Virus record (IMG/VR): IMGVR_UViG_3300046724_000152
Location: 11,508 to 75,507 of that record
Direction: 5' to 3' (one strand)
DNA length: 64,000 nucleotides
Source of the DNA: a virus
Below the pieces are notes generated by a model. That model was not told the DNA's origin, ran no database searches, and saw nothing but the letters and a program-made list of their open reading frames with translations. Shown in pieces: positions 7,457 through 38,512 of this stretch. Positions within the stretch are counted from its first letter, which is position 1; every line of letters starts with the position of its first letter. The position numbers and the translations under genes are program-made.

Positions 7457-7761
7457 TAGTCTTTCCTTGGATTAACGATTGGCGGGACTGCTTTATTCAG
7501 GCTGAAGTATTTGCATGATGGCGTGTCGAACGGAATTTTAGATCCATCCTTCTCCATCATGGTCGCGTATTTCTCACACTTACCGTTCTTCAGTGTACCT
7601 CCTCGATGAGTGCCCCGATTGCTCTTGTAGCCATTGAATTCGTAATGCTCGCACTCACGACAGGTTGTCCTCTTCGGCCCTGTTCCAGCCCAGAAGGCCA
7701 TTCCAGGCGGAGTCTTGTCGCGTAAGTCATCGACTGATTTATCGACTACCGTTAGTTTCAT
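7456..7761 (-). CDS. Hypothetical Cys-containing protein
   Basis: CRECEH...C...C pattern; coupled within the operon. Confidence 0.5.
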   Translation of the reverse strand: MKLTVVDKSVDDLRDKTPPGMAFWAGTGPKRTTCRECEHYEFNGYKSNRGTHRGGTLKNGKCEKYATMMEKDGSKIPFDTPSCKYFSLNKAVPPIVNPRKD

Positions 7762-8495
7762 ATTTCTTCCCTGTATGACGCTTCGACTCCAGGAGGAAGG
7801 TCTCCGGTTGCACGGCGATACTCTCGTGCCAGCTTCAGGATGGCTTCCTTGATTTCGTCGTTGGCTCCCATTTCTTGGAGTGCGGCTTGTGCGTCAACGA
7901 CAACGAGCGTTTCTTTGGTCTTGAGGCTGACCGCTCGTGAGAAGCCGCCGGTAATTTTGACGTGGGTTTCTTTCTCCGTGAGGGCTGCTGCTCTTTGGGA
8001 TTTCTCGAAGTCACGGAAGGCAATATCGGCATCTGCGACATGAGCCGCAACATCAACTCCAAGTTCTCCGTGATTAGCTGACTCAATTGCTTCACGTTCG
8101 AGACGCTCAGCTTCACGCGCTTTGATCTCGGCTTCTCTAGCAAGTCCAGCAGCAACTCGATTTGCTTCTTCTCTAATGCGTCTTTCTTCTTTAATAAAAG
8201 CCGTGAGTCGATCCGATAGCGTATCAACGACTTTAGAAATTCTTGCGGCGACTGGTCGGTATGAATTGTTGATTTCTTTGACTTCGTCATTAAGTGGTCC
8301 AACTCTTTTTTTGCGCTCATCTTCCATATCCTGGATAGCTAATTTTCCTCTATCGAGGAAAAGCTTGGCTTCTTTAGAAGATTCACTATTGATAACTGGA
8401 TTTTCTGCCATCCAAGCAGAAATATCTTTCATCGTTTGATCAGTAATTTCGATCATTCCTGGTGGAGAATTATGCCCGATAGCTGCATCGTTCAT
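7758..8495 (-). CDS. Coiled-coil phage protein (IGHN N-terminus), recombination-module associated
   Basis: 245-aa ORF with GGTGAGGT RBS and a long charged helical region. Confidence 0.6.
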   Translation of the reverse strand: MNDAAIGHNSPPGMIEITDQTMKDISAWMAENPVINSESSKEAKLFLDRGKLAIQDMEDERKKRVGPLNDEVKEINNSYRPVAARISKVVDTLSDRLTAFIKEERRIREEANRVAAGLAREAEIKAREAERLEREAIESANHGELGVDVAAHVADADIAFRDFEKSQRAAALTEKETHVKITGGFSRAVSLKTKETLVVVDAQAALQEMGANDEIKEAILKLAREYRRATGDLPPGVEASYREEI

Positions 8496-8500
8496 TTATT

Positions 8501-9138
8501 GGACCTCACCATGCCATGCCATGCCTAGCCCCGCCCAACCGGGCCTCTCCATTCCGCACCCTGTATCGCCGCGCCATGCCTCTCCTGGCCGGACCACACC
8601 TCACCCAGCCATGCCTCGCCCCAGATCGCCATGCCTTGCCACACCGCACCCGACCCGGCCTTGCCCTACCTTGCCAGATGTCGCCTCACCCAACCATTCC
8701 ACGCCTGACCTGACCTCACCCAGCCATGCCGCTCCTCGCCACAGATCGCCAGACCTAGCCGTGCCTCACCGCACCTAACCATCCCAGACCACGCCAGACC
8801 ACGCCCTGCCCGAGGCCAAGCCACACCTCACCACACCTCGCCTGTCCCTACCCAACCTAGCCCTATGCAGACATGCCTCGCCCAACCTCGCCATGCCTTA
8901 CCTAGCCAAGCCTTGCCAGATATCGCCATGCCGCACCCTTCCAAAGATCGCCATGCCTCACCAATCCGCACCTCACCAAGCCAATCCCAGCCTTGCCTTG
9001 CCGAACCAAATATCGCCATGCCCTACCTAACCCCGCCATGCCTTGCCGCGCCGCACCTTGCCCGATGTCGCCATGCCATGCCCAACCTTGCCAAAACAAG
9101 CCAGTCCTAACCCTACCGCGCCAGAACATGCCAGAGCC
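8501..9138 (-). repeat. Phased pentanucleotide array (GGY-NN)n, candidate non-coding guide-RNA array
   Basis: Hand count: ~125 consecutive 5-mers, ~113 starting GG on the minus strand (~102 GGY, 10 GGA, 1 GGG), last two bases variable; one 2-nt phase slip at 8811-8817; fills the gap between two co-oriented genes. Confidence 0.9.
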
Positions 9139-9141
9139 TTA

Positions 9142-9175
9142 ACCTAGACCGCTCCATTTCTGGAACGGTCTAGGT
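9142..9175 (-). ncRNA. 15-bp hairpin leader between the Cas7-like gene and the array
   Basis: Minus-strand RNA ACCUAGACCGUUCCA-GAAA-UGGAGCGGUCUAGGU; the GNRA loop and a G-U pair work only on the minus strand. Confidence 0.75.
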
Positions 9176-9187
9176 AAAGCATTGAGA

Positions 9188-9805
9188 TTACTCGTAATTA
9201 ACGATGCCAAATCGGCCAAATGTTGGTCGATGATCACCGATTCCCACTAATCTACCAGCACTTTCAATAGTTTCTCGCAAAATATTTCGATCAATATATT
9301 CCGGCAACAAAACCATCAGCTCGATAGTCGCCTTCCAGCCAGCCCTGAAGGCTGGACGGACTCTGTTGATGCCCTGACGTTGGACAGTGACCCGGCACTT
9401 ATCGAGGTAATCCCACTCCTTGGTACCCATGCTGGCAAGGTGTGTGGTTGCGACGATACCGGCCTTGTAGAGATCCATCGCACTCTTTCGTGGCGAGCGT
9501 GGATCCTGCCGGAATTTTGCAGCGTTGATGATCGAGCCGCGAAGATACAAACCAGGAAGGCAGATGTAGCCTTCCTCATTACGGTAGACATAGCTCTCGA
9601 CGTTGTCGGTTTTCTTCGCCTTGGAGTTCTTGGCTGCTGCGCCTTTTGCATCAACCTCTTCGGCATTCCAGCGATGGAAGATCAGATCCGCTGCTCCCTC
9701 GATGGTCACCTCTACCGAGTATGGCTCGCTGAAGGAAATCGGCTCCTCGCCGCCATTGGTCGGCTCCTTGATAACAATAACCTTAGCTGTGCCTTGTTTA
9801 GCCAT
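9188..9805 (-). CDS. Solitary Cas7/RAMP-fold-like RNA-binding protein
   Basis: RAMP-like motif order: VEVTIEG..LIFH strand, YICLPGLYLRGSIINAAK, RVRPAF..W.ATIEL, C-terminal Gly-rich loop AGRLVGIGDHRPTFGRF; 205 aa. Confidence 0.75.
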   Translation of the reverse strand: MAKQGTAKVIVIKEPTNGGEEPISFSEPYSVEVTIEGAADLIFHRWNAEEVDAKGAAAKNSKAKKTDNVESYVYRNEEGYICLPGLYLRGSIINAAKFRQDPRSPRKSAMDLYKAGIVATTHLASMGTKEWDYLDKCRVTVQRQGINRVRPAFRAGWKATIELMVLLPEYIDRNILRETIESAGRLVGIGDHRPTFGRFGIVNYE

Positions 9806-9824
9806 AAGACTTCAATCTCCGTTG

Positions 9825-10076
9825 TTAAGTTACTTTCTCTTTCTCAGCATAGTTTCTCAGTGCTTTTCTTATTGCATCAGCAGCTTCTTGTACCTCCTTC
9901 TGAGCTTGCTCAAGTTGACCGATAGCTTCTGTTGGAAAGTCAGGAGCTACAGGCATCATAGTGACCCAACTGACAATCTGTTTTGCGTCACTCTGAATGT
10001 GCTTGGCACGAATGCCGATGACCGAGAGATACGGTGCAACAAGCCGATCCCATTCCGTCAATGTTTGATGTTTCAC
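9825..10076 (-). CDS. Hypothetical protein
   Basis: 83-aa ORF in operon upstream of the Cas7-like gene. Confidence 0.5.
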   Translation of the reverse strand: MKHQTLTEWDRLVAPYLSVIGIRAKHIQSDAKQIVSWVTMMPVAPDFPTEAIGQLEQAQKEVQEAADAIRKALRNYAEKEKVT

Positions 10077-10327
10077 TTAACCCTCCAGCAACGAAAGCCT
10101 TCAGGGGTCTTGCGGATTGAGAATTTGGTGCCTTCATTGCGACGGCAGAAGTAAGAAGCAGCGCCTCGGCAACGAGCGGTCAACCTCATATCTTCGCCAA
10201 CCAGGAAACTGTCACCAACCTTCATGTTAGCAAACGGCCAACTAAGCCAACTGGCCAAGCCAGGAGGTGGTGTAGGAACGTCGCTCTCGATCTTAAAAGC
10301 CTGCTTGATCAGTCGCGGTCGTTTCAT
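10073..10327 (-). CDS. Small putative DNA-binding protein
   Basis: KIESDVP.P...WPFANMKVGDSF...RCWR pattern common in phage small DNA-binding proteins; GGAGA RBS supports ATG at 10327. Confidence 0.55.
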   Translation of the reverse strand: MKRPRLIKQAFKIESDVPTPPPGLASWLSWPFANMKVGDSFLVGEDMRLTARCRGAASYFCRRNEGTKFSIRKTPEGFRCWRVK

Positions 10328-10404
10328 GTGGTCTCCGTTGTTGAATTGTTCATATCCCAAATTGGGTGTTGCAGTCAAGCCCGGAATGGGCTACCAGGAA
10401 GTCC

Positions 10405-10590
10405 ATGACACTTGAAACATTTCTGATAATACGCGGGATCAGCACAGCGCAGTTTGCCAAAACGTCAGGCTATCCCTTCGCCACCGTGGCCAAGTGGCGG
10501 CAACGGATCAGGATTCCACGTCCTGCCGCCATGCTGAAGATTCAGAAACTCACAAAAGGAAAAGTGAAGCCTCATGACTGGTACCGGTGA
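10405..10590 (+). CDS. Cro-like HTH regulator
   Basis: TAQFAKTSG...TVAKWRQRIRIP...IQKLTKGKVKPHDW; sits at the divergence point. Confidence 0.75.
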   Translation: MTLETFLIIRGISTAQFAKTSGYPFATVAKWRQRIRIPRPAAMLKIQKLTKGKVKPHDWYR

Positions 10591-33335: not shown

Positions 33336-34466
33336 TCACTGGAGCGAGTCCCCTACTTCCTTGAAGATCTGACGCATGATCTTTCGCTGCTTCCTGTTGG
33401 GCGAATACGAGCAGACCTCGAAGGTCATCAGGTCGCAATCCTCCAGCGTTTCCGCTATTGGATGCACATCTGGCATGTTGAACACCCGATGTAGTGGCGG
33501 TGCGTAGCCCTCACGCAACGGCAGACCGAAGCTGTTGATGCGGGCAACGAACTGCCGACGATCCCAATGCCAGATCTTGGCGGCCCAGATGTAATAGACA
33601 TGATGGCAACCGTCCCGCTCGACCGGCGGATGGATGTTCGGATAGTCGAACACCATGTCGGTCAGCTCTAACGCCAGCTCCCTGCGATTCTCGATGATAC
33701 CCGGACCTTTGCTCAACTGCGCCGAGGCCAGAGCCGCAATCGGCTCCGTCATTCTGAGGTTCAGACCCATGATCCCAGGCCGCAGCTCGCCGTGATTGAC
33801 GGCATCTCTTACCTTGAGGGCGAGGTCGTCGTCGTCGCTGACGACGATTCCTCCTTCCCCAGTCTGGAGATGTTTATGAATGTTAAGGCTAAACACACCA
33901 AGATGGCCGACAGTGCCAGCGTAATGATCACCGACTTTGGCAAACGGACTCTGCGCATTGTCTTCGATCATCCAGACTTTGTTGTGGTCACACCAACGTC
34001 TTATCTCTTCGAGATAAGCCGGATGACCGAACAGGTTGGTGACGATAACAGCTTTTGGCTTTCCCTTCGAACCGCCGATCTGCTTAAGATCCATGGAGAA
34101 TGTAACAGGCTCGATATCGATGAATTCTACATTTGCTCCAAGGATTTTAGCGCAGGATGCCGTGGCACTCATGGTGGTGGCAGGGCACCAGACCCTATCT
34201 CCGGGCCCAATGCCGACCGCCATGCATGCCGCCATCAACCCCGATGTGGCAGAATTACAGGGCACGGCATGTCGTACACCGAACGTAGATTGCCACTCGT
34301 CTGCGAGGCGCTGAACCCAATAGCCACCAGCATGATGACCACCAAGATAACCACTAAAAGGACGGCCCAAGGTCGATAGTACATAGCTCCTCTCCAGCCA
34401 GTTGCGGGTCTCGAACGGCTTCAGCACCCCAAGCTTGCTCTTCAACTTCGGCCCTAGTTTGTGCAT
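33336..34466 (-). CDS. DegT/DnrJ/EryC1/StrS sugar aminotransferase (PseC-like)
   Basis: CNSATSGL, MIEDNAQS, FSLNIHKHLQTGEGG, GLNLRM; the longer ORF-track N-terminus is an overlap artefact. Confidence 0.88.
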   Translation of the reverse strand: MHKLGPKLKSKLGVLKPFETRNWLERSYVLSTLGRPFSGYLGGHHAGGYWVQRLADEWQSTFGVRHAVPCNSATSGLMAACMAVGIGPGDRVWCPATTMSATASCAKILGANVEFIDIEPVTFSMDLKQIGGSKGKPKAVIVTNLFGHPAYLEEIRRWCDHNKVWMIEDNAQSPFAKVGDHYAGTVGHLGVFSLNIHKHLQTGEGGIVVSDDDDLALKVRDAVNHGELRPGIMGLNLRMTEPIAALASAQLSKGPGIIENRRELALELTDMVFDYPNIHPPVERDGCHHVYYIWAAKIWHWDRRQFVARINSFGLPLREGYAPPLHRVFNMPDVHPIAETLEDCDLMTFEVCSYSPNRKQRKIMRQIFKEVGDSLQ

Positions 34467-35305
34467 CGTATGCTCTGGCACATCCTGGCGATGTCCTGCT
34501 CCATGTTCGGCAGGGTAAAGCCGAACTTGCTCTCGACCCTGGTCAGGTCCAGCCTTGTGTCGAGCGGACGTGGAATCCGCCCTGGGATACCGACCGACTC
34601 CACCGGTCGCAGCCCCTTCAGGCTGTGGCCGAGGCCGTTGGCCAACAGCGCGGCAAACTTGGCTTTCGACATGCCGCTGGAAGAACCGAGATTGAAGGTG
34701 CCGGTTCGTGGCGTGTTGGCCATGGCCACCAGCCGTTCCGCCAAGGTCTGAGCCCACAGCGGACTGAACATGGCATCGGTATAGACATTGAACTCGACGC
34801 CTGACTTCAGCTTGCCGATCATGAAATCGGCCAGACTGCTCCTGGCCGGTGATCGCGCTGACCCATAGAAATTGGTCCGCACGATCAGGTGGTTCTGCAC
34901 CTTGGCGGCGGCAAACTCGCCCATGAACTTGCTCATGCCGTACATATTGATGGGATTCTCGCTCTTGGAATGCTCGCGGTGCGGGCCGTTGCCGGAGTAC
35001 ACCATGTCGGTTGATATATAAATCAACCGGCAGTTCCCCGGCATGTGAGCAGCGATGTTCTCCACCATGCCGCAGTTGTAGAGTACCGCCTTGTTCGGAT
35101 CCTTCTCGCACTCATCGATGTCGGTCAGCGCCGCAGCATGAACGATCATCTGCGGCGCTGTTTTTGCCATCCACGTCCTGACGCTGTCCCAGTCGGTCAG
35201 ATCGCAACTGCTTCTGGCCAAGCCCTCGACAGTGCCAAGCCTGGAGAATGCCATCTTCAGGTACGGCCCCAGCAGCCCGGTGTCGCCCGTGACCAGGATC
35301 CTCAT
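34454..35305 (-). CDS. RmlD-like NAD(P)-dependent sugar reductase (SDR)
   Basis: ILVTGDTGLLG, HAAALTD.D.CE, YISTDMVYSG, YGMSK. Confidence 0.85.
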   Translation of the reverse strand: MRILVTGDTGLLGPYLKMAFSRLGTVEGLARSSCDLTDWDSVRTWMAKTAPQMIVHAAALTDIDECEKDPNKAVLYNCGMVENIAAHMPGNCRLIYISTDMVYSGNGPHREHSKSENPINMYGMSKFMGEFAAAKVQNHLIVRTNFYGSARSPARSSLADFMIGKLKSGVEFNVYTDAMFSPLWAQTLAERLVAMANTPRTGTFNLGSSSGMSKAKFAALLANGLGHSLKGLRPVESVGIPGRIPRPLDTRLDLTRVESKFGFTLPNMEQDIARMCQSIRCTN

Positions 35306-35322
35306 GTCCGTGTCAGCTCCTG

Positions 35323-35529
35323 TTACTTGGCGAGGTGGGTCCAGATCTTGCCGATCCGGTTGTCGTACTTCTGGATGTGGTTGATGACGCGACCGGATTC
35401 CCTGGGTGCCTCGCGAACGGCGATGGCCAACAGCTCCATCCACTTGTCGTTGTTCCTGACCCTGATCTTGGCCATCCGGTCGATCAGGCTGCGCTTGGTC
35501 TTCGGTAACTCTTTGCGCTTCGTTCTCAT
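35323..35529 (-). CDS. Small basic hypothetical protein
   Basis: Coupled between sugar genes. Confidence 0.5.
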   Translation of the reverse strand: MRTKRKELPKTKRSLIDRMAKIRVRNNDKWMELLAIAVREAPRESGRVINHIQKYDNRIGKIWTHLAK

Positions 35530-36479
35530 AACATCCCTCTCAGTTGTTCGATGGTTAACCAATCGACATTAGTGTCGCTGGTGTAGCGCCATCCTGGAGG
35601 CACACGATTCTCGTAGTCTCTTTTTTTATGTCCAGGCTGGTCGATGCAGTAGAAGTTTGCGAAATCGGTTGTGTTCAGGCTTTCGTCTTCGGTGATCAGT
35701 GTCTCGTGGATTTTTTCTCCAGGTCTGATGCCGGTGTTGAATTCCAGAAATCCGTAATCGTCGCAAACAGCAACTGCAAGATCTCTGATTCTAATCGATG
35801 GAATCTTCGGTATGAGAATCTTCGAGTGAATTCCGACACTAGCCAACTCCTCTGCGTAGAGGACCAGCTTAACGCTCTGATCCATGGTGATCCAGAACCG
35901 CGTCATTCTTTCATCGGTAACCTTGAGGACTTTGCCCTCCGCCTTTCGCTTCTTAAATAATGGAAGAACAGAACCCCGCGAACCGGCAACATTGCCATAT
36001 CGCACAACATTGTAATGGCACCCGCCAGCGGCCAAGGCATTCGCTGCGACAAATATCTTTTCCGCTGCAAGCTTCGATGCACCATAAAGGTTGATTGGAT
36101 TAACGGCCTTATCTGTCGATAGTGCGACAACTCGCTGGACCTTAGCTCTGAGCGAAGCCTTAACCACATTCTCAGCCCCTGTGACATTGGTGGCGATGCA
36201 TTCGGTTGGATTGTACTCGGCGGTCGGCACGATCTTCAGCGCGGCGGCATGGATCACGGTATCGATGCCACGCATTGCCATCTCCAGACGGTCGAGGTCG
36301 CGGACATCGCCAATGAAGAAGCGCAATCGCTCGTCGTTGAAGCTATGCGCCATCTCCTCCTGGGTATGTTCGCCCCTGGAGTAGATTGCGATTCGCTCGA
36401 CACTCGGATCCTTGAGTATCCGACTGGCGAAGGCTTGGCCGAACGAGCCTGAGCCGCCAGTGATCAGGACGGATTTCAT
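35526..36479 (-). CDS. pseB: UDP-N-acetylglucosamine 4,6-dehydratase (inverting)
   Basis: LITGGSGSFG, FFIGDVRD, HAAALKIVPTAEYNP, LSTDKAVNPINLYGASK, RYGNV.GSRGSV, MTRFWIT. Confidence 0.92.
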   Translation of the reverse strand: MKSVLITGGSGSFGQAFASRILKDPSVERIAIYSRGEHTQEEMAHSFNDERLRFFIGDVRDLDRLEMAMRGIDTVIHAAALKIVPTAEYNPTECIATNVTGAENVVKASLRAKVQRVVALSTDKAVNPINLYGASKLAAEKIFVAANALAAGGCHYNVVRYGNVAGSRGSVLPLFKKRKAEGKVLKVTDERMTRFWITMDQSVKLVLYAEELASVGIHSKILIPKIPSIRIRDLAVAVCDDYGFLEFNTGIRPGEKIHETLITEDESLNTTDFANFYCIDQPGHKKRDYENRVPPGWRYTSDTNVDWLTIEQLRGML

Positions 36480-38512
36480 GCGGACTTTCTTAAGGATTGA
36501 CCGGCGATAGTACCTTTGAGGCGACTCGACATGATGCCTTGCTGCAAGACATCATTGATTACATCCATGGTATGTTTATAGGCTCGACGGATGATCTCGA
36601 TCTCTGGATCTTTAATGGCGTAAGATACGCAATTAGCATTCAGGATCAGCACACCCATCCGCGCCATTTCCTGGGTGAACAGAGCCTGGATCTGTTCCTT
36701 GGTTGCGCCAAGGAAATCATGAACGTCCAGTTTCAGGAGCGGTGGCGAGCCACGAAACGCAATTGGACCAGAATAGTGTGATGTTCTTTCAAGTAGCGGT
36801 GCTTCAGATCGGATCTTCAATCCAACAGAGTATAGATGATCAAGGACGTTCTCCCGTTCCATCTTCTTGATAGTGGCGAGTGCAGCAGCCATCGACAGAG
36901 TGTCACCAAAGAAGGTGCCGGAGAAGAACACGCCGAGGTGGCCGTTCAGCATCTTCATGATCCCGGCATCACCGACCAGAGCCGAGATCGGCATTCCGTT
37001 GGCCATCGACTTGCCGAAGCAAGCAAGATCGGGTGTGACACCAAAATACTCCTGACCACCGCCCATGGCGTAACGGAAGCCAGTCTGGATCTCATCGAAG
37101 ATCAGAATGATTTCGTTCCTGGTACACCATGACCGTAATGCCTGGAGGTATTCCCTGTCGTGGGTTGGCTCGACAATGACGGCGGCGACATCGCTCCAGT
37201 CTTCGCCCCAGTCTCTTAATTCATCGAGATCACCGTATTCGATCTTGTGTGACAGATTGGTTACGGATTCTGGAATTCCTTTGTTCTTTCCTTCCAGTGT
37301 TGAGGCTGACCAATCAGCCCAGCCATGGTAGGATCCGATTAGAATATGATCCCGTTCGGTGTAGGCCCTGGCCAGCCTGACTGCCGCCGATGTCACATCG
37401 GTACCGGACTTGCCGAACTGGACCTTATCGGCACAAGGAATCAGGTCGCACAGCTTCTCGCTTAACTCACATTCAAGCTTGGTGGCCAGACTGAAGCTCA
37501 TGCCGCAGTTCAGTTGCCGCCGCACCGCCTCATCAACGTCAGGATCGCGGTAACCTAGGACAACAGGAAGTAGAGCATTAACAAGATCAACATAGTCGTT
37601 CCCATCAACATCAAAAATCCTCGCACCATCGCCATGAGAGGCGAATAGTGGAGCCCCGCCCCTGGGATACCAAAGAGCAGACTTCGAGTATGTTTGGGAC
37701 CCAAGGGGAATTGTCCTGGTGGCTCGTACCAGCAGCTCATCTGACCGTTGATATGTTCGTTCTGGTAATCGTTCTCCAGCGAGGTCCTGGTAGAACCGCT
37801 CATTTCGAATGGCTCCAGCATTGATTTGCCTCAGGTGTGGGTTGTCATCGAGGATCCGCATGATATGCATGCATGTCGGCGGGAAAGCCAGCGGCAGTTG
37901 CTTGGCGATTTCCTTGCACAGCTCGTAGTCTTCCTTGGTGTCGAGGACCCATCGCTCCTTGTGTGCCCCAGGAAACGGGCAAATCAGGTATTCCTGGGAG
38001 AACCGATCCCGGTTGCGGATGATCCACTGTGTCACACAGTCCCGATCTGTCTTCCTGGTGGTCTCTCTCCAGGCTGTTTCCAGCGCATCGAAGGTGAGAC
38101 ACTCGACATCCAATCCGTCTGGCCATGTCGGCTGGTTGGAACAGTACGAAGCACCCGTCGTCTTTTGTAGTTGGACGACCTGTCCGACCACATAAGGGTC
38201 GAGGAACGGACAATCACAGGTGATTCGCAGGATAATGTCGGCTTTATAGTCTTTCGCACATTGATAATAGCGGTTCAGCACATCCTTTTCTGAGCCACGG
38301 AAGCAATCGATGCGGTTCTGTCTGCAATCCTTGGCTAGAACATCATCGGATTCCAGCGTGGTGGTGGCGATCACCACCTGATTGACTCCTGGAGAGTTGA
38401 CTAACGCCCGCCAGACCCAGCGATACACCGGCATGCCTCCGAGTGGAGCCATCACCTTGCCAGGGAACCGCGTCGAGCCCATCCTAGCCTGGGCAATCGC
38501 AACGACTTTCAT
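36476..38512 (-). CDS. SpsF/PseF-like cytidylyltransferase fused to class III aminotransferase
   Basis: N-terminal QARMGSTRFPGKV...RITCDCP; C-terminal FDVDGN.Y.D, FDEIQTGFR, PDLACFGKSMANG. Confidence 0.88.
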   Translation of the reverse strand: MKVVAIAQARMGSTRFPGKVMAPLGGMPVYRWVWRALVNSPGVNQVVIATTTLESDDVLAKDCRQNRIDCFRGSEKDVLNRYYQCAKDYKADIILRITCDCPFLDPYVVGQVVQLQKTTGASYCSNQPTWPDGLDVECLTFDALETAWRETTRKTDRDCVTQWIIRNRDRFSQEYLICPFPGAHKERWVLDTKEDYELCKEIAKQLPLAFPPTCMHIMRILDDNPHLRQINAGAIRNERFYQDLAGERLPERTYQRSDELLVRATRTIPLGSQTYSKSALWYPRGGAPLFASHGDGARIFDVDGNDYVDLVNALLPVVLGYRDPDVDEAVRRQLNCGMSFSLATKLECELSEKLCDLIPCADKVQFGKSGTDVTSAAVRLARAYTERDHILIGSYHGWADWSASTLEGKNKGIPESVTNLSHKIEYGDLDELRDWGEDWSDVAAVIVEPTHDREYLQALRSWCTRNEIILIFDEIQTGFRYAMGGGQEYFGVTPDLACFGKSMANGMPISALVGDAGIMKMLNGHLGVFFSGTFFGDTLSMAAALATIKKMERENVLDHLYSVGLKIRSEAPLLERTSHYSGPIAFRGSPPLLKLDVHDFLGATKEQIQALFTQEMARMGVLILNANCVSYAIKDPEIEIIRRAYKHTMDVINDVLQQGIMSSRLKGTIAGQSLRKSA

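What the first reader, a model, noticed from the sequence alone, without database searches (positions are those of the whole stretch)
8561..9072. The array has a grammar: GGCGA-YMY punctuation divides it into ~55-65-nt units
Seen: eight of the non-GG pentamers (8561, 8621, 8676, 8741, 8918, 8943, 9008, 9063) read TAC/TCT/CAT/TAT-NN on the minus strand. Each is immediately preceded by GGCGA, and five by GGCAT-GGCGA, with the 5-nt phase kept. Spacing is mostly 55-65 nt (one of 25). Example NN strings 5'-3': 9062-9013 AA GC GC AA AT GG TA AG AT GA; 9007-8948 TC AA AA TG TT TT GA GC TT GA AT GA; 8675-8626 AA AG AA CG CG GC GT AA AT GA. Inference: the motif is a processing site or filament boundary giving ~10-11 separate guides, i.e. 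a multiplexed array.
Basis: partly seen in the sequence, partly recalled or inferred. Interest (0 to 1): 0.82.

Follow-up and report, generated by a model that had tools for sequence, protein, structure and literature searches.

The report
Guide boundaries in phage VIPR array
The regularly spaced GGCGA-plus-odd-pentamer marks are real and most likely separate about eleven guide RNAs in the array of a soil phage's VIPR system, a CRISPR-related RNA-guided DNA silencer first described in 2026 preprints, so this is a good new example of a known kind.

Summary
On the minus strand, 9132-8501 is a 632-nt array of 114 GGNNN pentamers, 103 of them GGY. All eight named non-GG pentamers lie at the stated coordinates, in phase, each after GGCGA (p about 1e-6). 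GG runs between breaks are 10, 12, 4, 9, 10, 13, 12, 10, 11 and 12, far more regular than chance.

The system is already known. The 205-aa gene upstream (9188-9805) is a Vipr protein: its family profile matches the solved SUSP1 Vipr (E 4e-9) and its model has a Cas7 fold. The array is its vrRNA array (VIPR, bioRxiv 10.64898/2026.04.26.720920). Published vrRNAs carry 9-16 repeats, which fits these units.

The array has no structured 3' tail. It is closest to the paper's 'staggered' arrays, whose processing has not been confirmed experimentally.

Evidence for boundaries is statistical and comparative. Arrays of several of the closest relatives end in GGATA, GGATT or GGCGA followed by T-rich sequence. 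Two relatives show 8-13-unit punctuation with other break letters. The GGCGA-YMY motif itself is confined to this phage.

No RNA data exist and no convincing target was found, so processing remains unproven.

This scan has already followed up punctuated VIPR arrays on other DNA; a word search returned 35 related notes in at least 30 genomes.

The parts
9188..9805 (-). vipr gene: 205-aa stand-alone RAMP (Cas7-like) protein
   Evidence: It matches phrog_4652 at E 3e-17 and has no Pfam hit. The family profile matches PDB 36pp_D 'SUSP1 Vipr protein' at E 4.3e-9, including the G-loop (GIGDHRPTFGRF here, GVGDWRPRFGRF in SUSP1). The AF2 model has pLDDT 92.9. Foldseek's best matches are Cas7-type CRISPR backbone subunits of type III (Csm3) and type VII complexes, probability 1.0.
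9136..9180 (-). Strong GAAA-loop hairpin between the vipr stop codon and the array
   Evidence: RNA fold of 9200-9085 gives -51.5 kcal/mol, z -6.5, with 0 of 200 shuffles as stable. No U-tract follows. Its role as a processing or stabilising element is inferred.
9093..9132 (-). Array leader: GGCAT gttct GGCGC GGTAG GGTTA GGACT GGCTT gtttt
   Evidence: Pentamer parse. It forms a terminator-like hairpin at 9127-9104 followed by TGGCTTGTTT. It is probably not a guide.
9063..9092 (-). Short unit a (5 repeats, NN = AA TG AT AT GA) plus break catcg
9008..9062 (-). Unit b (10 repeats) ending GGCAT GGCGA, plus break tattt
8943..9007 (-). Unit c (12 repeats) ending GGCAT GGCGA, plus break tcttt
8918..8942 (-). 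Short unit d (4 repeats) ending GGCAT GGCGA, plus break tatct
   Evidence: It is too short for a published-size vrRNA and may be a remnant.
8863..8917 (-). Unit e (9 repeats) plus double break gtctg catag
8811..8862 (-). Unit f (10 repeats) plus the array's only phase slip ('cg', 8812-8811)
8741..8810 (-). Unit g (13 repeats, with the internal tandem GGCGT GGTCT GGCGT GGTCT) ending GGCGA, plus break tctgt
   Evidence: Parse. One contig of run X21 carries an extra in-phase 10 nt (two pentamers) behind 8783.
8676..8740 (-). Unit h (12 repeats) ending GGCGA, plus break catct
8621..8675 (-). Unit i (10 repeats) ending GGCAT GGCGA, plus break tctgg
8561..8620 (-). Unit j (11 repeats) ending GGCGC GGCGA, plus break tacag
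8501..8560 (-). Unit k (12 repeats). Its last pentamers, GGTGA GGTCC, lie just before the ATG (8495) of the next gene

Best explanation
The region is the guide-RNA (vrRNA) array of a phage VIPR system.

Shown for other VIPR systems in the literature: Vipr protomers bind an RNA of GGY-NN pentamers, one protomer per repeat. They hold each GGY and expose the NN pairs. The NN pairs read double-stranded DNA as NNxNNx and silence it.

Inferred here:
- The whole 632-nt tract is transcribed from the minus strand as one precursor downstream of vipr.
- About every 9-13 repeats there is a unit in which GG is replaced by TA, TC or CA, usually after a fixed GGCAU-GGCGA.
- Such a unit cannot be gripped by the two guanine pockets of Vipr, so the protein filament stops and a new one starts on the next GG run.
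- The exposed pentamer is then cut or trimmed by host RNases. This would yield about nine guide RNPs of 9-13 repeats, plus two short pieces.
- The conserved GGCAU-GGCGA-YMY would act as a minimal 3' end signal, in place of the roughly 40-nt structured tail of the studied type II vrRNAs.
For: 1. Vipr identity.
- The family profile matches the solved SUSP1 Vipr at E 4.3e-9.
- The model has a Cas7/Csm3 fold at probability 1.0.
- The GG-contact residues named in the structure paper align: D177-W178-R179 with D191-H192-R193, and R138 with R150. P. fulva Vipr has Y at the aromatic position.

2. Array identity.
- There are 114 in-phase GG pentamers, 90% of them GGY, with 16 kinds of NN, co-oriented with and 55 nt downstream of vipr.
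- 202 of 214 loci fetched around Vipr homologues carry co-oriented GG-pentamer arrays.

3. Punctuation.
- GGCGA precedes 8 of 12 breaks (p 1e-6).
- Spacing is regular (p 6e-4 and 4e-5).
- Unit sizes of 9-13 repeats fall within the published 9-16 repeats per vrRNA.
- The flanks are conserved while NN elsewhere vary.

4. Relatives.
- L201 has runs of 5-11-11-11-9 separated by single non-GG pentamers. L085 (76% identical Vipr) has breaks every 8-13 units over its first four units.
- Arrays of several of the closest relatives end in GGATA, GGATT or GGCGA followed by YTTT. This includes 'GGCGA TCTGG' in L004.

5. No sigma-70-like promoter lies inside the array, which is consistent with a single precursor.

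6. [quoted passage not shown]
Against: - There is no RNA evidence. No run on record as RNA holds this phage.
- No target was found whose match is confined to one unit.
- In the family as a whole, non-GG pentamers are frequent at 2-4-unit spacing. The paper itself notes internal degeneracy of vrRNAs, so a missing GG does not have to end a guide.
- Some relatives have 42-100 repeats with almost no breaks (L044, L027, L051), so this clade must have another way to set guide ends, or can do without one.
- GGCGA-before-break is not enriched family-wide (ratio 1.26).
- Units of 4 and 5 repeats are shorter than any published vrRNA.
Confidence: 0.62

Rival explanations
1. The non-GG pentamers are tolerated degenerate repeats inside longer guides, or inside one very long filament. 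They have no boundary role, and guide ends are set in some other way.
For: [quoted passage not shown]
- Across 352 related arrays, internal GG runs are mostly 2-4 units long.
- Relatives such as L044 have 100 repeats with about one break.
Against: - Here the breaks are regularly spaced (p 6e-4 or lower).
- They carry a conserved flank (p 1e-6).
- They are of a no-G type that makes up only about 5% of family breaks.
- The units they delimit match published guide sizes.
Confidence: 0.15
2. The motif is a scar of how the array grew. Units of about 55-65 nt were duplicated together with their ends, so the repeated GGCAT-GGCGA-YMY reflects common descent and not a signal.
For: - Units h and j begin alike: tctgt GGCGA GGAGC GGCAT GGCTG GGTGA versus tctgg GGCGA GGCAT GGCTG GGTGA.
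- Unit g holds a tandem 10-nt duplication that is polymorphic between samples.
Against: - The h/j similarity is not significant on its own: 719 of 2000 shuffles give a shared run of 3 pentamers.
- NN positions elsewhere have diverged completely while the boundary letters are kept. That pattern needs selection on the boundary.
- Duplication and function are not exclusive.
Confidence: 0.1
3. The boundary works through a sequence-specific host or phage endoribonuclease that recognises GGCGA|YMY, and not through a gap in the Vipr filament.
For: - Conservation extends to the GG-containing units GGCAT and GGCGA. A simple 'no GG, no protomer' model does not require that.
- Several CRISPR systems rely on host RNases (general knowledge).
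Against: - The motif is not shared by relatives' punctuated arrays: L201 and L085 use other letters.
- No candidate nuclease gene is conserved next to vipr. None of eight neighbouring ORFs has a homologue in more than one of 214 loci.
Confidence: 0.1
4. The punctuation acts at the DNA level, for example as internal promoters that give each guide its own transcript, or as recombination sites.
For: Sequences of the GATATT or GATATC kind at four breaks faintly resemble -10 hexamers (sequence).
Against: The scan found no sigma-70-type promoter on either strand of 8300-10500, against 1.2 expected in shuffles. No matching -35 elements are present.
Confidence: 0.03

Closest known systems
VIPR systems with 'staggered' vrRNA arrays (bioRxiv 10.64898/2026.04.26.720920, Results and fig. 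S18 legend)
   Same: Both have a stand-alone Vipr RAMP gene flanked by a long, continuous GGY-NN pentamer tract. [quoted passage not shown] Both are phage-borne.
   Different: [quoted passage not shown] Here the separator is a whole in-phase pentamer lacking GG, after a fixed GGCAT-GGCGA.
- The figure itself could not be seen, so identity of layout is not established.
- The paper states that, of the alternative layouts, only the hammerhead-interspersed and single-vrRNA ones were confirmed by small-RNA sequencing.
Type II VIPR (Escherichia phage SUSP1, Pseudomonas fulva prophage)
   Same: Both share the Vipr fold and the G-loop residues that hold GG, GGY-NN repeats, and 9-16 repeats per guide. 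By inference they share the filament and the NNx reading of DNA.
   Different: - Type II vrRNAs each end in a conserved structured tail of about 40 nt (a pseudoknot in SUSP1) and are about 100 nt long. Here there is no tail, only 5 nt between units.
- Type II has a vap1 gene next to vipr; none is recognisable here.
- Sequence similarity to SUSP1 Vipr is remote (E 4e-9 with a profile).
Class 1 CRISPR crRNA arrays with Cas7 backbone filaments
   Same: Both have a RAMP protein polymerising on a guide RNA, thumb-induced base flipping at a fixed period, and a multiplexed array cut into unit guides.
   Different: - The period is 5 nt with sequence-specific GGY anchors, not 6 nt without sequence specificity.
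- There are no repeat hairpins, no Cas6, and no cas1/cas2.
- The guide information is non-contiguous.

Membership tests
VIPR system | Vipr protein: small stand-alone RAMP with RRM core, G-loop and thumb | tested here: met
   The family profile matches PDB 36pp_D 'SUSP1 Vipr protein' at E 4.3e-9. The model has pLDDT 92.9. Foldseek's best matches are Cas7-type CRISPR backbone subunits of type III (Csm3) and type VII complexes, probability 1.0.
VIPR system | Residues that hold G1, G2 and Y3 (SUSP1 R138, D177, W178, R179) | tested here: met
   In the alignment they correspond to R150, D191, H192 and R193. R150, D191 and R193 are invariant in 30 homologues. The aromatic position is F in most relatives, H here and Y in P. 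fulva. H17 was not covered by the alignment.
VIPR system | Adjacent, co-oriented tandem GGY-NN pentamer repeats with variable NN | tested here: met
   There are 114 in-phase GG pentamers, 103 of them GGY, with 16 NN types. No guide is shared with 214 related loci beyond short chance-level matches.
VIPR system | 9-16 repeats per vrRNA | tested here: inconclusive
   If the breaks are boundaries, the units hold 10, 12, 9, 10, 13, 12, 10, 11 and 12 repeats, plus two short ones of 5 and 4. The boundaries are inferred, not mapped.
VIPR system | vipr-accessory (vap) gene in the operon | tested here: not met
   None of eight neighbouring ORFs has a homologue in more than one of 214 Vipr loci. Pfam finds nothing, and PHROGs only an 'exonuclease'-labelled family for the downstream 245-aa ORF. 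The paper says loci 'typically' have a vap, so this does not exclude membership.
VIPR system | Carried by a phage or provirus | tested here: met
   The record is a 75.5-kb virus record. It encodes a large terminase and a portal protein.
VIPR system | vrRNAs expressed and bound by Vipr | not testable with these tools
   No run on record as RNA holds the phage.
VIPR system | Natural targets readable by the NNx (1-nt skip) rule | tested here: inconclusive
   There is no hit in the phage's own genome or in 214 loci above chance. Six seed scans of IMG/VR and one scan of five related phage records gave no full-length match.
Type II VIPR (SUSP1 clade) | Conserved structured 3' tail of about 40 nt after each repeat tract | tested here: not met
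   Units are separated by 5 nt (10 nt once, 2 nt once). No non-repeat stretch lies inside 9092-8501.
'Staggered' vrRNA array | vrRNAs abut, so the end of one is the start of the next (1-nt overlap) | tested here: inconclusive
   The tract is continuous with guide-sized punctuation. The figure defining the layout is not held, and no RNA ends are available.
CRISPR array | Direct repeats of 23-50 nt alternating with spacers; cas genes | tested here: not met
   Only a 5-nt period is present. Rfam finds nothing.

The most novel reading that the evidence does not exclude
A tail-less VIPR array may define its guides with nothing more than one GG-less repeat, plus a short fixed GGCAU-GGCGA end. Guide length would then be set by where the Vipr filament can and cannot sit, and maturation would be simple trimming of the unprotected pentamer. 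That would be the simplest maturation route proposed for a guide-RNA array: no dedicated nuclease, no hairpin and no ribozyme.
Probability: 0.3. Interest if true: 0.55.

Novelty: new member of a known kind. Interest (0 to 1): 0.33.

Why it matters
VIPR systems were described only in 2026. How vrRNAs are cut out of continuous, tail-less arrays has not been shown experimentally.

This soil-phage array is an unusually clean case. It has eleven units, a single in-phase GG-less pentamer as separator, and a conserved two-repeat end. It would therefore be a convenient substrate for testing whether filament gaps alone define guide ends, and for designing compact multiplexed vrRNA arrays.

It does not change the picture of what VIPR is.

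Tried and rejected
- **Coding reading.** Only short ORFs of 85 aa or less cross the array, and they are by-products of the repeat.
- **Rfam.** No family matched at E up to 1 in 7500-10500.
- **RNA evidence.** No RNA holder is listed among 24 soil and rhizosphere runs. Laying four DNA runs gave fragmented contigs. It showed one in-phase 10-nt insertion at 8783. It also showed one weakly supported 258-nt skip, on 1 contig with a 22-nt side, which I disregard.
- **Targets by the NNx rule, local scan.** A scan of the phage's own genome plus 214 loci gave only two chance-level 15/16 hits.
- **Targets by the NNx rule, IMG/VR seeds.** Exact 8-9-unit seeds were run for units g, h, j, i, k and c, and the hits were then extended.
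  - Unit h matches a T7-like major capsid gene (L217, L218, L221) over 12 of 12 units, but only with a one-codon bulge and with the skipped base at codon position 1. I judge this doubtful.
  - Unit i reaches 19/20 in L247 and L249, which is not significant given the seeding.
  - Hits for unit k spell [IM]YPQGS[IM]A, but only one lies in a real gene in that frame.
  - No other guide converges on any of these loci.
- **Related phage records.** Unit h against five related complete phage records, with up to 3 mismatches, gave no hit.
- **Guide sharing with relatives.** Nothing was found beyond a 27-nt match.
- **Unit h/j paralogy.** It is not significant by shuffling.
- **Closest relatives' contigs (84% and 82% Vipr identity).** The 82% relative found in the metagenome collection (L084) is cut off right after vipr.
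- **Near-identical phage in GenBank.** None was found.

Full report
**What is there**

Read on the minus strand, the interval between the stop codon of a 205-aa ORF (9188-9805) and the ATG of the next ORF (8495) is almost entirely a 5-nt repeat. Parsing it in register gives 114 pentamers that begin with GG. Position 3 is C in 63, T in 40, A in 10 and G in 1. There are 12 non-GG pentamers and one 2-nt phase slip at 8812-8811. Positions 4-5 take all 16 dinucleotides.

Each is exactly 5 nt long, so the GG phase is kept. Each follows GGCGA, and five follow GGCAT-GGCGA. In all eight, position 3 is still a pyrimidine. Each is therefore a repeat unit in which only the GG has been replaced, by TA, TC or CA.

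**Is it more than chance?**

Only 13 of 114 GG units are GGCGA, yet 8 of the 12 break events follow one. The hypergeometric p is 1e-6, and none of 100,000 pentamer shuffles reaches 8.

The GG runs between breaks are 1, 5, 5, 10, 12, 4, 9, 10, 13, 12, 10, 11 and 12. Random placement of 12 breaks gives so even a spacing in 56 of 100,000 trials. It gives nine runs of 9-13 in 4 of 100,000.

The double break gtctg-catag (8872-8863) and the 2-nt slip also fall at guide-sized spacing. The first 40 nt (9132-9093, with gttct and gtttt) look like a leader that can fold into a terminator-like hairpin. Five GGCGA units are internal, so the mark is GGCGA plus a GG-less unit, not GGCGA alone.

**What it is**

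The upstream protein has no Pfam family and belongs to PHROG 4652, of unknown function. It has thousands of homologues in metagenomes.

A profile of 30 homologues matches the solved 'SUSP1 Vipr protein' (PDB 36pp) at E 4.3e-9. The match includes the glycine-rich loop. With a deeper alignment the AlphaFold model reaches pLDDT 92.9. Its best structural matches are Cas7-type CRISPR backbone subunits of type III (Csm3) and type VII complexes, at probability 1.0.

A literature search found the explanation. VIPR systems (Viral Interference Programmable Repeat) pair a roughly 20-kDa ancestral RAMP protein, Vipr, with vrRNAs made of 9-16 GGY-NN pentamers:
- One protomer binds each repeat.
- Each GGY is held by two neighbouring protomers.
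- The exposed NN pairs read double-stranded DNA as NNxNNx.
- The complex silences competing phages and satellites.

The residues reported to hold the guanines (R138, D177, W178, R179 in SUSP1) align with R150, D191, H192 and R193 here. Three of these are invariant in the family. The aromatic position also varies in the published proteins; it is Y in P. fulva.

Of 214 loci fetched around homologues from viral, metagenomic and genomic collections, 202 carry co-oriented GG-pentamer arrays next to the gene. The window lies in a 75.5-kb virus record with a large terminase and a portal protein. Soil and rhizosphere metagenomes hold it. Membership in the VIPR kind is therefore secure.

**What the punctuation most likely does**

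The studied type II vrRNAs each end in a structured tail of about 40 nt. This array has none. It is a continuous tract, as in the 'staggered arrays' that the paper mentions. [quoted passage not shown]

The units bounded by the breaks hold 10, 12, 9, 10, 13, 12, 10, 11 and 12 repeats, inside the published 9-16 range. There are also two short pieces of 5 and 4 repeats.

My reading is as follows. A GG-less unit cannot be gripped by Vipr's guanine pockets. One filament therefore ends there and the next begins, and the exposed pentamer is trimmed by host RNases. The conserved GGCAU-GGCGA-YMY would act as a minimal 3' end signal. No sigma-70-like promoter lies within the array, which fits a single precursor. 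These steps are inferred; none is shown.

**Comparative evidence**

This evidence is mixed, and both sides matter.

In favour:
- L201 has runs of 5-11-11-11-9 separated by single non-GG pentamers.
- L085, whose Vipr is 76% identical, has breaks every 8-13 units over its first four units.
- Arrays of several of the closest relatives end in GGATA, GGATT or GGCGA followed by T-rich sequence. One array in L004 ends 'GGCGA TCTGG', the same letters as the break at 8625.

Against:
- Across 352 distinct arrays, non-GG pentamers are common at 2-4-unit spacing and mostly keep one G (GC, GA, GT). This agrees with the paper's remark on internal degeneracy.
- GGCGA is not enriched before breaks family-wide (ratio 1.26).
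- Some relatives have 42-100 repeats with hardly any break.

The GGCGA-YMY motif is thus specific to this phage or its near kin. A missing GG is not by itself proof of a boundary.

**Targets and RNA**

A target whose match stopped at a break would have settled the matter. None was found.
- The phage's own genome and the 214 loci hold only chance-level matches. That agrees with the reported absence of self-targeting.
- Six exact-seed scans of IMG/VR, followed by extension, gave no convincing full-length match.
- The best case was unit h against a T7-like capsid gene. It needs a one-codon bulge and puts the skipped base on codon position 1, not on the wobble position. I treat it as doubtful.
- Five related complete phage records hold no match to unit h.

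No RNA run holds the phage. One DNA sample carries an extra, in-phase 10 nt inside unit g, which shows that the array changes by whole pentamers.

**Verdict**

The interpretation, a multiplexed guide array with the motif at unit boundaries, is the best reading. It agrees with what is published for VIPR, but it rests on spacing, conservation and analogy, not on RNA ends or targets.

The system is a new member of a kind described in 2026. This scan has already followed up several punctuated VIPR arrays on other DNA, with other forms of punctuation such as 6-nt units, 1-nt slips and hairpins; a word search returned 35 related notes in at least 30 genomes. What is particular here is the form of the comma: a single in-phase GG-less pentamer after a fixed GGCAT-GGCGA.

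Noticed in passing
window 9136-9180 (minus strand): A long, near-perfect hairpin with a GAAA loop lies between the vipr stop codon and the array (z -6.5 against shuffles). No U-tract follows it. It may stabilise or release the array transcript.
   Followed up: partly
window 9093-9132 (minus strand): The first seven 'pentamers' of the array can fold into a terminator-like hairpin (9127-9104) followed by UGGCUUGUUUU. They may be a leader or attenuator and not a guide.
   Followed up: partly
window 8783 (unit g): One contig of a 2020 rhizosphere run has 10 extra bases here, a third copy of the GGCGT-GGTCT pair. The array is therefore polymorphic by whole pentamers between samples.
   Followed up: partly
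window 8495-8512: The last pentamers of the array (GGTGA GGTCC) sit just upstream of the ATG of the next gene (7758-8495), where a ribosome-binding site would be. Vipr loading could therefore affect its translation.
   Followed up: no
L044:3119-3629; L027:2427-2903; L051:2237-2975: Relatives carry tracts of 93-142 GGY-NN repeats with only one to five breaks. How guide ends are set in these arrays is unexplained.
   Followed up: partly
L025 (arrays ending about 2390 and 2842): In L025, arrays end in GGGGA GGCGA followed by AAGCCTCCCC, which forms a GGGGAGGC-GAAA-GCCTCCCC tetraloop hairpin. This is a short structured tail built partly from the last two repeats. L174-L186 (Phycisphaerae-type MAG loci and others) also end in GGCGA followed by a conserved AAGCCGCGTCGG, but I did not check whether that folds.
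   Followed up: no
L004, L012, L081, L118, L132 (arrays next to vipr): In several relatives, repeat tracts end in GGATA or GGTTT and are separated by AU-rich spacers of about 15-17 nt (such as CTTTATCAATTTT). This looks like a longer form of the separator seen in the window.
   Followed up: partly
window 9232 (codon for H192 of Vipr): The aromatic residue that stacks on the second guanine is H in this protein and in its two closest homologues. It is F in the other 27 aligned relatives, W in SUSP1 and Y in P. fulva.
   Followed up: partly
window 33336-38512 (minus strand): Two large ORFs (591 and 678 aa) match PHROG 'aminotransferase' families. This is unusual cargo for a phage and may relate to sugar or surface modification.
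   Followed up: no
G001:C1:77766-81599; G002:C1:60966-63761: The large-terminase homologues of two related phages match in separate pieces inside open frames of 1771 and 1006 aa. This suggests inserted elements such as inteins.
   Followed up: no
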